From assembly GCA_002269645.1 (NCBI GenBank), contig NIVC01002013.1:62001-126000 (forward strand): a stretch of DNA of 64,000 nt, in the 5' to 3' direction. Both the position numbers and the translations under genes were made by a program. Positions 50,448 to 55,402 of the stretch are shown one piece after another; the stretch's first letter is position 1; each line of letters opens with the position of its first letter. This stretch comes from Macrostomum lignano (Eukaryota). The notes beneath the pieces are model-generated. The model saw nothing but the letters and a program-made list of their open reading frames with translations, did not search any database and had not been told where the DNA came from.

Positions 50448-50975
50448 ATGGTTCTCAGTGAAAATAGCTATCTTCAGCAGTCAGGAAGCGTGCAGGTATC
50501 GGCGCGGCGATCACAAAGGCTGTTTGGAAAGGCTGACAATCTTCTCTCCGTGGATATTGGTCGAGCTGCAAATCGTGCGGATGTGGAGGCAATTGTGCAG
50601 ATTCTGAAGTCGAAGTTGACAGCAGTGCAAGCATTGGATGAAGCCATAGAGGAGTCTATCGCTGATAGGGGCTGGATGCTGAAGTGGAAGAGAATCAAGC
50701 TTATTCGATGAAGTGTATCAGCTGCATTAAGATGCTGGAAGCAGCTTTCAATATTCAATAGTCAACAATCGCCGGAGGAGGCAATAGCGACTAAAAGTCG
50801 TTCCGTAGAGTCCGGGTCGCAGATCAAGCTTCCCAAGAGGCGAATTCCGACATTCACGGGGGAGATTTCGGCGTGGCAGTCGTTTTGGTATCAGTTTGAC
50901 TCTTCCATACATCGCAACTCGAGCCTGTCAGATATACCGGTAGACAATTTCAACTATCTCATATTTTGCGAGAGC
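50448..50975 (+). pseudogene. BEL/Pao gag N-terminal fragment
   Basis: KLPKRRIPTFTGEISAWQSFWYQFDSSIHRNSSLSD..FNYL, the typical BEL/Pao gag (DUF1759-like) motif; frameshifted. Confidence 0.85.
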
Positions 50976-50989
50976 GCTACAGAAAGAAA

Positions 50990-52300
50990 GAAATCAAAGT
51001 CAAGGACTTACGATTTCTTGACGCCAGCACCTGACGCCACGAACAAAATGTTCCTATGGCACCTATTGCAAAGCTTCGCATTATTCGGAAAATTTGAAAA
51101 ATGGAGTTTCCGACCATTAAATACTGTTTGATTCGCCTTGCCCTCCTTGGTATTACATGATTGGCATGCTGCGCCGCGATATTTACCATTGTAGTGATTA
51201 TGCTCTCGAAATTTTTTACTATCTACAAATGGCCTTGAGCAGAGAAAACATTGTTCTGCCGCTTTGTAATCAGTCTCTTCGTCATCACTTAATCTTGCAT
51301 GTTTATATCTATCCATTTCATTTCTTATATGCTCAAACTTTTTGATTACGGCTTCAACGAATGATTCCACTGTAGTATTTGAAATAATATCTGATTTTGT
51401 AATATTTTCATAGTCGGAACTATTAAAAAGTGTCTTGTTTGATAGCTCTATGGATTTTTATCTATCGATACATAATCCAATATTGCATAAAACACAAATG
51501 GCTTTCTTACACTCATGTGGTAGTTCTTAAACTTTAACATCCTCTTATCAATCTTTGGAACTTCAATTGACACCTTGAAGTCGACACAAAGTGCTTTATG
51601 ATTATCCAGTGCATCCTGGGAGTATTTAACCTGAAGGCATTTTCTACAAAGAAAAACCCTATTGTTAAACGTGAGGAATAAGTTTAGGTCTGTTATTAAA
51701 CAATAATGATTTTTAACAAGTAGTAAATCAATAACATCGGGGTTGTCATAATCTTATGTCAGACGAATATAATATATTGACTCTTTAGTATTTATATCTC
51801 TCAATCCAAACACATTTATATGGAGGCTGTTCAACTTTTTAATCTCAGAGATATCTCAAATGTCCACTGGAAATTCAACGTCTCCTAAGTTTATGTCATT
51901 TATATACTGTGTATACTTACCAACTCTATATCTATGTTCCTTCACAGGATGAAGCTTGGCTAAAATAGACCAGAGAAAGCACCTATTGTCTGTAGTATTC
52001 TAAACATTTACTAATACGTTTGATTCAATTGGAATTTTAATATAAGTTCCTCCCTTCAACTGATTAATGCCAACAACTTTCAACACAATCTTTAATAACT
52101 TAACAAAATAATATCCCGATCCCCTTTCATTAAAACTATCCTTCCATTCATCGAATTCATCCAGAACATCCTGAATTGTAGTTTCTATACTAGTTTTCAC
52201 TTGGAAAAGATTTAACAAAATTCGATACTTTGAATGATATTGGAACTCAATCCACTTGTCGGTAGTTCCTTTATAAAATTCTGCAACAAAGGAAATTCTG
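50990..52300 (-). pseudogene. Polinton/Maverick (adintovirus-like) family-B DNA polymerase, N-terminal region
   Basis: ERGSGYYF..GGTYIKIP..NV*NTTDNRCFLWSILAKLHP..RVGKY..EFPVDI..INVF; LKFKNY..PFVFYA; endonuclease-VII-like CFLC..REHNHYNGKYRGAACQSCN. Contains stops and frameshifts. Confidence 0.8.
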
Positions 52301-52803
52301 TATTTTATGAATCTCTAGCCATCAAATGTTCGAAAAGAATTGGGGAGTGTGATGACTTCATATTGTGAGTAACAATATCGGTTTTGGGGTTGGCCTGCGC
52401 TGGGGGGGGGGCTGAGGCACGCTCAAGTTGCCTTTTAATTTATCGATTGTAATATGTACGCACGTACGAGGGTACTTTGTGCATGCCTAATATTAAAATA
52501 TATATATATCGACTGATTTTGGCTTTTGAGCCCTCGTGTATTTTGTTATCGTCCGCCAAATATTGCAGTAGTTGACTCTGTTAAAGGGAGATTAAACCGT
52601 GAATTTCTTCAACGGAGTCGAGATCAAACTCATAAGAGGCCGCTGGTATTTTCCTTTCCATTTTTAAGAAAAAAATTATACAATATTAATTGTAGGGAGG
52701 TGCACATGGAGCATCTGATTGAAGATTGAGTGTTGCCGAGTACTCTTTTGGCTTATCAGCTAGACCCAATTTTTCTCTCAGATCTTTCTCCAGCAATTCC
52801 TTT

Positions 52804-53441
52804 TTAATTTTTTCCTTCGCTGAATGACCAAGACTTACTCTCTTTGAGGATTTTATCAACGACTTCCGAATGGTTAACTAGTTTTCTCCCTTGCTTATCT
52901 TCAGGCACAAGAGAAGTATCTAACAATTTGTCTCTTTTCTCTCTGTATTCTGAATAAATTGCAGTAGCTGCTTGAACCTCTTCAAGAGTCATCAACTACT
53001 TTTTGGGAGTATATACGAGCTATACAATCTTTCTCTCTATTGATTTGCCAGATCTCTGAGAACAATGTATTTTGCCTTCTGCTTTTGGCAATGCATTTTC
53101 ACAGCTGCAAACAATGACATGGATTTTACAGCTTCAAAACCACTCATTGCCCCGATTAATATTCCAATGACTAAGGAATTCAATGTCAGTATCGATGTTG
53201 CTATGCCAATCCCTGTAGCAGCCAAGAGACTCACATTTCCTGTCACAATGTTGATCCAATTTATCCTGCTACTTTGTCGTTTGTACTTGTTTACCTTTTT
53301 GCTATAAATTGTAAGATCTTTAGTAATGCATTCAATACTGCCTTTGATTTCACCCCTTCTCTGATTGAAATAGTCCCGTTCCCTCGAATCTGCTTCATGC
53401 AGCTCAACCACAGGATAGATGTGTTCATTTTCATCATTCAT
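52804..53441 (-). pseudogene. Coiled-coil plus two-TM ORF of the type found beside Polinton-like PolB (GasderminX-like by recollection)
   Basis: IYP...KKVNKYKR followed by a long Gly/Ala/Ile hydrophobic stretch and a basic helix; same strand as PolB. Confidence 0.45.
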
Positions 53442-53534
53442 TTTTATGTGGCAATTATGTCTAAAATCGGATAAAGTTGAAAGCCTGAATCAATAAGAAC
53501 AGTTGATCCTTCAGTGGCTGAATTAATATGCACT

Positions 53535-53855
53535 CTATAAACTGAGAATTTTTCGGTGGAAGCTACTTCGAAATACTTCATCACTCCAGAAACTAAACCA
53601 GCGTTTTCGGTAGAAAAAAATATTCTTAAAGTCTCTCTTGTTATTGCTACCTTTTAGAATAAAACTTTTTGGTTGATTTTTTATAATTTCACTACCTACT
53701 GCTTTGGTTCCTTTCAATCCGAATTTCCAAATTTGAATAGACTCGGGAAGTTTTACTTCAATGTAAGAATTGGGTTCATTCCTCGATGCCCATTCTGAAT
53801 TAGATACTATATAACCCCAATTATCTGACGTTTCAAATGCTCCTGATGACGCTAC
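53535..53855 (-). pseudogene. Discoidin/F5-8-like (galactose-binding fold) domain fragment
   Basis: WASRNEPNSYIEVKLPESIQIWKFGLKG...NQPKSFILKGSNN pattern. Confidence 0.5.
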
Positions 53856-53869
53856 ATTGAAACCACAGT

Positions 53870-55402
53870 GGAGTGTACCGATTCTTCTTCACCTTCTCTG
53901 CTCAAAGTGATTCAGATTTCAGAATTTTCTCTGTGGACCAAGCTCACTCGAGTGGTTGGTTGGGTCTTGAGATTTGTCAGCATCTTGCGCCATCGGATTG
54001 TTAAATAACCATCCTTGTTAACGGCTACGGAAATATTACAGGCAGGACAGTCAGTGCTGCGAGCCGTGCGAATGAGTGCGACACTCATCCTGCGACAATG
54101 AGTGCAAATCATTGTCGAACGAAATTTCGTGCCTCAGCGGTTCTGGACCTCGCACGCCGTTAGTGCACGATCTCAAATTGTTCCTTGATCCTACTGGATT
54201 AGTTCGGTCAGCGGGTCGTCTGCAGGGCGCTGTGCCCTTCGACACCAACGATCCAGTGCTGATTCCCTCAAAGAACCCGCTCGAAACCTCGCTTGTCCGT
54301 CATTACCATGCGGCTGTGATGCATTTCGGGTGGCGGCAACAATATGCAAGCTTCGTGAACGTTTTTGGGTTTTAAAGGCGAGACAGTGTGTGAAGCAGTT
54401 ATTGGCGGGGTGTGTTGTGTGCAAGAAGTTTCAAAGGTCGACCGTTTTCCGTGCTTGCGGTTCCGCAGCTTCCATCCTTCCGTTTGTCAACTGTTCGTGC
54501 TTTTCGTACAGTAGGACTGGATTATGCTGCTCCGATAATCTATCGGACGGCGGAGGGTGGTGAGAGCAAAAAGGCGTACATCCTGCTCTTCACTTGCTCA
54601 GCAACTCGAAGTTGTTTCTCATCTGGAAGTTGTTTCAAGGATGGACAGCGAACAACTTCTGCATGCACTGCGTCGGTCCGTGGCTCGAAGGGGCATTCCC
54701 TCCATCGTCAGTGACAATGCACGGACATTTCGGTCAGGCGCCAAACGGATCGGCGCTAGTATCTCAGAAGAGCTGCAGTCGTTCTGTTCGTCGAAGAAGA
54801 TTTGTTGGCATTTTGTGCCCGAGGGAGCTTTTTGGTGGGGAGGTTACTGGGAAAGGCTGATTGGCATCGTGAAGATGGCACTAAAAAGGCTGCAGGTCGA
54901 CTGCTGTTTACCTACGACCAGTTGATCACTCTAACTGTGGAAGTCGAAGCTGTGGTAAACTGTCGGTCGCTGTTGTATGTAACCTTCGGATTCAGGCGAC
55001 GGTATGAAGGTCATCACACCGTCCCATTTCATTGCAGCTAGTCGTCTCAGTGAGGCGGACTCCGTTCTACCGCTTTCGAAACGGCTTACAATGCTTAGAG
55101 CAGCTCTGGATTGGTTTTGTAACCAATGGAAGACGTCCTACTTGGAGTCTCAGCGCGAGAAAGCCCTAAAGGATCAACCTAACCGCCGCCCGCCAAATGT
55201 TGGTGAAGTGGTTCTTCCGGCAGGTGAAGCTCGACAACCAAGACTCAAGTGGAAATTGGGTATTGTCGAGGAAGTGCATCCTGGTTGTGATGGTGCGATC
55301 CGTTCGGTTCTTCTTCGCGTTGCGGGTGCTGGGAGTTCCCGGCGCTGGGAACGGGTGAGGCGGCCAGTCCAGTCGTTGATTCCTTTAGAGCTTCAATCCT
55401 AA
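53870..55402 (+). pseudogene. BEL/Pao pol C-terminal part (integrase and DUF5641-like tail)
   Basis: FSLWTKLTRVVGWVLRF; GRLQ; H..H..RERFWV..CVVCKK; VGLDYAAP; SDNARTF; WWGGYWERLIG; WKLGIVEEVHPGCDGAIRSV..RRPVQSLIPLE. Multiple frameshifts. Confidence 0.92.

What the first reader, a model, noticed from the sequence alone, without database searches (positions are those of the whole stretch)
50975..53870. Antisense Polinton/adintovirus-like gene cassette replaces the protease-RT-RNaseH core of a BEL/Pao element
Seen: BEL gag stops at ~50975 and pol resumes at ~53870, just before the integrase. Between them are ~2.9 kb of AT-richer DNA with three co-oriented minus-strand relics: a discoidin-like domain, a two-TM coiled-coil ORF, and a PolB N-terminus with an endonuclease-VII-like zinc motif. 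The cassette is truncated at both ends, and no Polinton TIR or TSD was seen. Inference: a swap by recombination or template switching between a DNA-virus-like element and an LTR element, rather than a simple insertion.
Basis: partly seen in the sequence, partly recalled or inferred. Interest (0 to 1): 0.7.

Follow-up and report, generated by a model that had tools for sequence, protein, structure and literature searches.

The report
Polinton scrap inside dead BEL retrotransposon
A dead retrotransposon in an animal genome has its enzyme core replaced by a 2.5-kb middle piece of a resident virus-like Polinton element, likely patched in once during DNA-break repair; both parts are broken and sit at one insertion site, so this is most likely ordinary transposon debris rather than a new mobile element.

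Summary
The mosaic is real; the left edge given was wrong. BEL DNA runs to 51121. The cassette is 51122-53864: 2,500 bp from the middle of a resident ~19-kb Polinton family, plus a later 243-bp solo-LTR insert. It holds the end of a discoidin-domain gene, a whole hydrophobic ORF and about 443 of 954 codons of a protein-primed PolB, all antisense. It replaces 2,784 bp of BEL (gag zinc knuckle, protease, RT, RNase H). The BEL copy lacks its 5' LTR and sits in a hAT-like MITE with an 8-bp TSD. Both junctions occur exactly 4 times in the genome, always within the same long collinear flanks: one event, later duplicated, no sign of transposition. BEL and Polinton share no homology at the breakpoints. 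The left joint carries a 12-nt templated duplication like other deletion scars here. The cassette has stops and frameshifts. Best reading: one-step capture during break repair (0.45); rivals: nested Polinton then two deletions (0.35), RT template switch (0.14). 4 of 6 other loci of this BEL family also lack the core. The scan's notes held no such chimera on other DNA. Low interest.

The parts
49992..49999 (.). left 8-bp target-site duplication of the hAT-like MITE (twin at 56472-56479)
50000..50260 (+). left arm of a hAT-like MITE (14-bp TIR, 21-bp internal repeats)
   Evidence: cargo-free copies in L049-L052
50261..51121 (+). BEL/Pao leader and gag up to the zinc knuckle; 5' LTR and PBS absent; 79-bp and 373-bp internal deletions, the latter with a 15-nt insert
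   Evidence: ~6% K2P from L033
51122..52661 (-). N-terminal ~443 of 954 codons of a Polinton protein-primed PolB (vOTU-like Cys/His motifs by sequence reading, zinc finger, EndoVII, start of exonuclease); broken by stops, frameshifts and the solo LTR
52348..52586 (+). solo LTR (239 bp, 4-bp TSD) of an unrelated LTR family; only in the window's copy
52686..53441 (-). whole Polinton ORF with a hydrophobic stretch (273-codon frame in free copies); frameshifted here
53447..53864 (-). last ~139 codons of a Polinton gene with two F5/8 (discoidin) domains (474-codon frame in a free copy, E 2.4e-10); frameshifted
53865..55402 (+). BEL pol from the tether after RNase H through integrase and DUF5641; frameshifted
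55520..55877 (+). young 5'-truncated non-LTR-type 3' end with (GTT)n tail and 6-bp TSD; absent from the C2422 copy
56172..56388 (+). BEL 3' LTR after a polypurine tract
56389..56471 (+). right arm and TIR of the hAT-like MITE

Best explanation
A BEL copy sitting in a hAT-like MITE lacks 2.78 kb of its core and holds in its place a 2.5-kb internal Polinton piece, likely joined in one error-prone DNA-break repair event (end joining or gap filling with polymerase-theta-type scars). Shown: the anatomy, both junctions, one insertion site present four times in the assembly, decay of all frames, later nested inserts. Inferred: a break or stalled fork in the already inserted BEL; a Polinton fragment (linear Polinton DNA or a nearby copy used as template) as filler; polymerase theta as the enzyme; the order MITE, BEL, capture, duplication of the region, LINE-like insert, solo LTR. 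The product does nothing: it is neutral debris.
For: Both junction patterns and the BEL-LTR/MITE junction match exactly 4 places, the same four contigs, whose flanks are collinear over about 20-40 kb. No BEL-Polinton homology. Left joint: 12-nt insert copied from 3 nt inside the Polinton side, in 3 of 4 copies and nowhere else in the genome; 18 of 20,000 random pieces match flanks this well. Right joint: 3-nt direct repeat, chance 0.016. Two ordinary deletions in the same element carry flank-templated inserts too (340 and 346 of 20,000), the SD-MMEJ signature described in PMC7407515 (passages). No Polinton arm or TIR survives nearby in any of the 4 copies and no intermediate was found: 0 of 36 fetched Polinton-locus stretches hit BEL, and none of the BEL loci tested touches Polinton DNA except through one shared unrelated insert. 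Neutral decay: changes private to single copies have pN/pS 0.75 (cassette) and 0.97 (integrase); 4 stops are shared by two copies.
Against: The scars do not tell one capture from two deletions: ordinary deletions here look the same. The final joint on the left has no microhomology. The stem before the copies split carries 11 shared changes with pN/pS 0.67 (3 synonymous, 8 not), so there was time for stepwise erosion; my hoped-for 'too little time' argument failed. No donor was found: the cassettes form their own clade (support 0.999-1.0) 3.9-8.9% from all 25 free copies compared, so a cis donor, which PMC8277862 finds typical for gap filling (passages), is not shown. A fourth insert tested (Polinton 9.9-kb deletion) was not better than chance (10,160 of 20,000).
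Confidence: 0.45

Rival explanations
1. A whole Polinton integrated antisense into the BEL core; two later deletions (about 6 kb + x and 10 kb + y, x + y = 2.78 kb of BEL) removed both arms and left the middle.
For: Nesting is common here (mariner-like insert in L033, solo LTR and LINE-like insert in the window, BEL in a MITE). Large deletions are common: 3.1 and 4.2 kb in other BEL loci, 1.47 kb in the C2422 cassette, 9.9 kb in a Polinton subfamily. 4 of 6 other BEL loci lack the core. Deletion scars look like the cassette joints. Neutral time on the stem exists.
Against: Needs an insertion plus two deletions larger than any seen in the BEL loci examined, both ending inside the 2.8-kb core and sparing gag and integrase; no Polinton remnant outside the one block and no one-armed intermediate among 4 copies.
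Confidence: 0.35
2. BEL reverse transcriptase switched twice onto a co-packaged antisense Polinton RNA; the chimera integrated once into the MITE and then lost its 5' LTR.
For: Replacement of internal ORFs by foreign sequence is the hallmark of LTR-mediated retroposition, includes a BEL case in mosquito, and 3 of 29 junctions there had de novo inserts (PMC5131818, passages). Integrase, polypurine tract and 3' LTR are kept. The Polinton's primase-helicase gene converges on polB, so read-through could supply antisense RNA (inference).
Against: 0 and 3 nt at the joints against a 6-bp median; a loop-out duplication that needs a free Polinton-side DNA end fits better (inference); antisense piece across three genes; no second insertion site; 5' LTR and TSD missing, so the defining test cannot be met.
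Confidence: 0.14
3. The 6.5-kb composite is a cargo-carrying non-autonomous hAT (Pack-TIR) that was assembled elsewhere and jumped here as a unit.
For: TIRs and 8-bp TSD are intact around the whole composite; multicopy Pack-hAT elements exist in frogs (PMC8277862, passages).
Against: Only one insertion site; no source locus; this says how it came here, not how the junctions formed.
Confidence: 0.04
4. Misassembly joining two repeats.
For: Both partners are repeats; one sister contig (C2663) is full of 1-bp indels; no contig shown met the tool's 31-letter bridging rule.
Against: Four copies with independent substitutions, deletions and inserts share both joints; the joints carry letters found in neither parent; cassettes are a clade apart from free copies; contigs of run X3 cross the left joint by 11 and the right by 28 letters.
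Confidence: 0.02

Closest known systems
Gap-filling captures in single-copy Pack-TIRs of animals (PMC8277862, passages)
   Same: Single-site, transposition-independent filler inside a TE; short or no microhomology; here the outer element is even a hAT-like MITE.
   Different: Filler is Polinton DNA, not host gene; it sits in a nested BEL and replaces 2.8 kb (about 40% of the element) rather than a median 4.6%; no nearby donor found.
LTR-mediated retrocopies (PMC5131818, passages)
   Same: Internal ORFs of an LTR element replaced by foreign sequence; a BEL example exists.
   Different: No 6-bp-scale microsimilarity, antisense three-gene piece with no sign of mRNA origin, no LTR pair, no further transposition.
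Polintons/Mavericks, OTU-PolB 'adintoviruses' (PMC8502044 and 10.1101/2024.03.18.585575, passages)
   Same: The donor family has pPolB with N-terminal extension, integrase-like ORF, DJR capsid, A32 ATPase, ~600-bp TIRs, 6-bp TSD in the one clean case.
   Different: The window holds only a 2.5-kb dead middle piece. The donor PolB has no PF03175 hit (Beta-like by that paper's rule) and the family also has a primase-helicase gene.
SD-MMEJ / polymerase-theta scars (PMC7407515, passages)
   Same: Templated direct or inverted repeats within 30 bp of the joint, apparent blunt joins.
   Different: Enzyme not tested; a 2.5-kb filler is far longer than the inserts described in the passages read.

Membership tests
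BEL/Pao LTR retrotransposon (parent family) | gag DUF1759, Pao peptidase A17 region, RT, integrase with DUF5641 in PR-RT-RH-IN order between two LTRs | tested here: met
   L033: PF03564 7e-31, RVT_1 1e-07, PF05380 5e-30, H2C2 4e-09, rve 4e-07, DUF5641 1e-14; 230-bp LTRs 98.7% alike
BEL/Pao LTR retrotransposon (window copy as a complete or mobile element) | two LTRs, PBS, TSD | tested here: not met
   5' LTR and PBS absent; BEL starts in the leader
Polinton/Maverick (donor family) | protein-primed PolB | tested here: met
   model pLDDT 84.5; best PDB hits phi29 polymerase E 2.6e-17; BFVD hits incl. adintovirus PolB E 4e-44
Polinton/Maverick (donor family) | DJR capsid and packaging ATPase | tested here: met
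   PF21738 2e-13, PF04665 7e-06
Polinton/Maverick (donor family) | long TIRs, AGT-type ends, 6-bp TSD | tested here: met
   TIR pairs of 590-630 bp in 4 of 5 loci fetched; 6-bp TSD clean in 1 of 3 inspected
Polinton/Maverick (donor family) | retroviral-like integrase | tested here: inconclusive
   ORF pieces with integrase-like motifs read by eye in C620 and C1101; not scanned against Pfam
Polinton/Maverick (donor family) | TP-vOTU domains at the PolB N-terminus | tested here: inconclusive
   Cys and His motifs read in the sequence, H246 invariant in 59 rows; no separate fold search of that domain; single-sequence model failed
Polinton/Maverick (window piece as an element) | TIRs, TSD, integrase, capsid | tested here: not met
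   only the middle 2.5 kb; nothing else within the window, next 10 kb or sister copies
LTR-mediated retrocopy | microsimilarity at both switch points | tested here: not met
   0 nt left, 3 nt duplicated right
LTR-mediated retrocopy | both LTRs and a fresh TSD | tested here: inconclusive
   5' end deleted, so it cannot be judged
hAT-type MITE / Pack-TIR | short TIRs and 8-bp TSD | tested here: met
   window and L049 have 8-bp TSDs; L050 imperfect
hAT-type MITE / Pack-TIR | matching autonomous hAT transposase; cargo moved to new sites | tested here: inconclusive
   transposase not searched (the label hAT rests on the TSD length, recalled); one site only
SD-MMEJ / TMEJ product | dependence on polymerase theta | not testable with these tools
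   only the sequence signature was tested

The most novel reading that the evidence does not exclude
An LTR retrotransposon captured three genes of a DNA virus-like Polinton by reverse-transcriptase template switching on an antisense transcript and transposed once as a non-autonomous chimera into a still intact hAT-like shell: a fossil of the route by which LTR elements pick up viral membrane or attachment genes.
Probability: 0.14. Interest if true: 0.55.

Novelty: new member of a known kind. Interest (0 to 1): 0.2.

Why it matters
As read here it matters little: it is one dead repeat patched with a piece of another, with readable repair scars and a five-layer nesting history. It is a tidy example that 'swaps' between unrelated mobile elements can arise without homology and without making a new element. 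It would matter more if a second, independently inserted chimera with two LTRs turned up, since that would show retrotransposon capture of Polinton genes; five paper searches (listings only) showed no BEL-Polinton chimera.

Tried and rejected
Amplified chimeric family: rejected, 4 places with shared flanks. Cassette as a discrete mobile unit with fixed ends: rejected, the 5 free copies inspected at the junctions run on past both and the 20 further loci run on past at least one. Homologous recombination: rejected. Reciprocal product (BEL core inside a Polinton): not found; three core-only BEL pieces lie in another repeat, not in Polinton DNA (40 of 52 candidates scored). Selection on the cassette: rejected. 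Timing test to separate one step from two deletions: did not separate them. Single-sequence fold of the PolB N-terminus: pLDDT 33.8, useless. Sequence search of solved structures: nothing under E 0.2. Expression: no RNA holder listed; not evidence either way. Run contigs: none of the 32 pieces shown, of 717, met the 31-letter bridging rule; a closer look at the right joint in further runs was not obtained, so independent bridging stays open. Rows left out: C2663 was dropped because of its many 1-bp indels; chimC2422 and L069-L072 lack the PolB stretch and were left out of that tree. No supplements were read; breakpoint tables in PMC5131818 and PMC8277862 could bear on how often such scars occur.
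Full report
What is there. The window lies at G000:C2013:62001-126000 in a 764-Mb animal assembly; earlier notes of the scan call it a flatworm genome (unchecked). Six-frame reading and Pfam confirm BEL gag and integrase on + and EndoVII, weak discoidin and weak membrane hits on -. Comparing with natural relatives gives a five-layer nest. Outermost is a MITE with 14-bp TIRs at 50000 and 56471 and an 8-bp TSD; cargo-free copies exist (L049-L052). Inside is a BEL copy from 50261 to 56388 with a 3' LTR but no 5' LTR or PBS. 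Inside that is Polinton DNA from 51122 to 53864. A 358-bp non-LTR-type 3' end (55520-55877) and a 239-bp solo LTR (52348-52586) came later.

The BEL side. Core-bearing relatives exist (L033 and the L034-L037 group); L033 has 98.7% identical LTRs and Pfam hits for gag, RT, Pao peptidase, H2C2, rve and DUF5641. Loss of the core is usual in this family: grouping fetched copies by shared flanks, 2 of 6 other loci keep it; two lost 3.1 and 4.2 kb and two are 3' remnants.

The Polinton side. Of 169 candidate loci 40 were scored; 3 are chimeric and 37 match only within the cassette. Free copies run on past both joints and carry 590-630-bp TIRs, AGT-repeat ends, DJR capsid, A32 ATPase and primase-helicase. 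The cassette is positions of about 6.1-8.6 kb in an 18.7-kb copy. It holds the last ~139 codons of a 474-codon gene with two F5/8 domains, a whole 273-codon ORF with a hydrophobic stretch, and ~443 of 954 polB codons. That PolB has 96 relatives at E under 1e-10, most with EndoVII; with an alignment of 59 rows it folds at pLDDT 84.5 and matches phi29 polymerase and adintovirus PolB. It has no PF03175 hit, the Beta-like class of PMC8502044 (passages). The TP-vOTU label follows 10.1101/2024.03.18.585575 (passages) and motifs read by eye; I did not test that domain by fold.

One event, one site. Patterns across the left joint, the right joint and the LTR/MITE joint each match 4 places, the same four contigs, with 0 control matches. 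The flanks are collinear for about 40 kb (C4131), 30 kb (C2422) and 20 kb (C2663). Inside the element the copies differ by 0.4-3.7% K2P; the BEL arms are about 6% from the nearest other BEL and the cassette 3.9-8.9% from the 25 free Polinton loci compared. The cassettes form one clade, support 0.999 and 1.0 in two trees. C2422 lacks the LINE-like insert and has lost 1.47 kb and 135 bp of the cassette on its own. So the chimera formed once, before the region was duplicated, and has not moved. Contigs of 4 runs show loose ends at both joints, as free Polintons would give, and run X3 crosses the joints by 11 and 28 letters, short of the tool's 31-letter rule: weak support only.

It is dead. Counting only codons where all free copies that cover them agree, changes private to single chimeric copies have pN/pS 0.75 in the cassette (6 synonymous, 18 not) and 0.97 in integrase (5, 15); free Polinton pairs give 0.17-0.26 for polB. 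Four stops are shared by the window and C4131, and each copy has frameshifts not seen in the 11 free copies used. Numbers are small.

The joints. There is no BEL-Polinton similarity better than E 0.13, and none at the breakpoints. Left: BEL ends, 12 nt follow that repeat the sequence 3 nt inside the Polinton side, then Polinton; this is in 3 of 4 copies, the window having lost one unit, and nowhere else in the genome. 18 of 20,000 random pieces match flanks as well (the pool includes the donor itself). Right: the last 3 nt of Polinton equal the first 3 nt of BEL and both are kept, chance 0.016. Two plain deletions in the same element have flank-templated inserts (340 and 346 of 20,000); a fourth insert, in the Polinton deletion family, was not above chance (10,160 of 20,000). 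Templated direct or inverted repeats near a joint, with apparent blunt joins, are the SD-MMEJ signature in PMC7407515 (passages). That polymerase theta made them is inference.

How it most likely arose. I commit to one-step capture during break repair (0.45): a break or stalled fork in the inserted BEL, loss of 2.8 kb, and a Polinton piece joined or copied in, as in the gap-filling model for single-copy Pack-TIRs (PMC8277862, passages). It needs one event and explains the lack of any other Polinton remnant. A nested Polinton with two later deletions (0.35) needs three events but uses only processes that are frequent here, and the scars cannot tell the two apart; my timing test failed to separate them, since the stem carries 11 shared changes with pN/pS 0.67. 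No intermediate was found. The two readings blend if a nearby Polinton served as template. RT template switching (0.14) gives this architecture in PMC5131818 (passages), but there 25 of 29 joints share a median 6 bp and both LTRs are expected; here the piece is antisense, the joints share 0 and 3 nt, and no transposed copy exists. Movement as hAT cargo (0.04) and misassembly (0.02) are unlikely.

Known or new. Paper searches for Polinton with LTR retrotransposon, chimeric and nested (16 papers, 14 listed), Bel-Pao with Polinton (0), template switching capture, non-autonomous or nested Mavericks and Polinton fragments in piRNA clusters listed no BEL-Polinton chimera; I saw listings and abstract starts only, and the library lacks most subscription papers. 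PMC2567098 (numts as filler) was seen as a listing only. The scan's notes held nothing alike by sequence or words; note e1-8580994 describes a capsid-less 9-kb Polinton half in this genome, probably the kind I met in passing. The pairing is unreported as far as I could see, but the kind (a dead repeat patched or eroded into a mosaic) is known, and a second middle-only mosaic of the same BEL family lies elsewhere in this genome. The labels hAT, mariner-like and non-LTR-type rest on TSD length, a Mos1 HTH hit and tail pattern, partly recalled.

Verdict. Observation partly confirmed, interpretation partly supported. New member of a known kind; interest 0.2. Novel case (RT capture of Polinton genes): probability 0.14, interest 0.55 if true.

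Noticed in passing
L053-L064 (e.g. G000:C963, C67, C2696): 12 of 20 loci fetched are a Polinton derivative with one shared 9.9-kb internal deletion that joins the hydrophobic ORF to the far TIR; at least 10 different flanks, so it spread after losing capsid and integrase-side genes.
   Followed up: partly
L069-L072 (e.g. L069:5075-9433): A Polinton subfamily in which the polB gene is replaced, at one shared point just after the hydrophobic ORF, by a different EndoVII-bearing PolB (PF03175 hit 6.6e-12) in the opposite orientation; 15 of 40 scored loci show this match pattern.
   Followed up: partly
L079:970-3831: The donor PolB frame is 954 codons against about 1,150 in its best relatives, with gaps in the exonuclease region, in a family that also has a primase-helicase gene; loss of exonuclease with gain of a helicase is noted in 10.1101/2024.03.18.585575 (passages). 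Exonuclease motifs not tested.
   Followed up: no
G000:C215:606798-608814, C1148, C4217: A 1.9-kb middle piece of the same BEL family's core (92% to L033) sits between parts of another repeat with inverted arrangement; it lies wholly inside the interval the chimera lost, but other BEL loci lost it too. A second middle-only mosaic.
   Followed up: partly
L028:601-1047: Polinton ORF with an Eco47II restriction endonuclease hit (E 2.2e-06); earlier notes of the scan discuss such nucleases with group I introns.
   Followed up: no
L033, L040, L044: Left deletion breakpoints of three BEL loci fall within 170 bp of each other in the gag zinc-knuckle region (4063, 4145, 4233 in L033); possible fragile spot or chance.
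   Followed up: no
window 9760-11470 and 48196-48774: Two arrays of the same 33-bp tandem repeat in inverted orientation, 37 kb apart; the window is rich in minisatellites.
   Followed up: no
window 19000-70000 against C4131, C2663, C2422: The whole region exists four times in the assembly at 87-99% identity per block; other repeat loci also come in 2-5 copies with shared flanks, as in a duplicated or unphased genome.
   Followed up: partly
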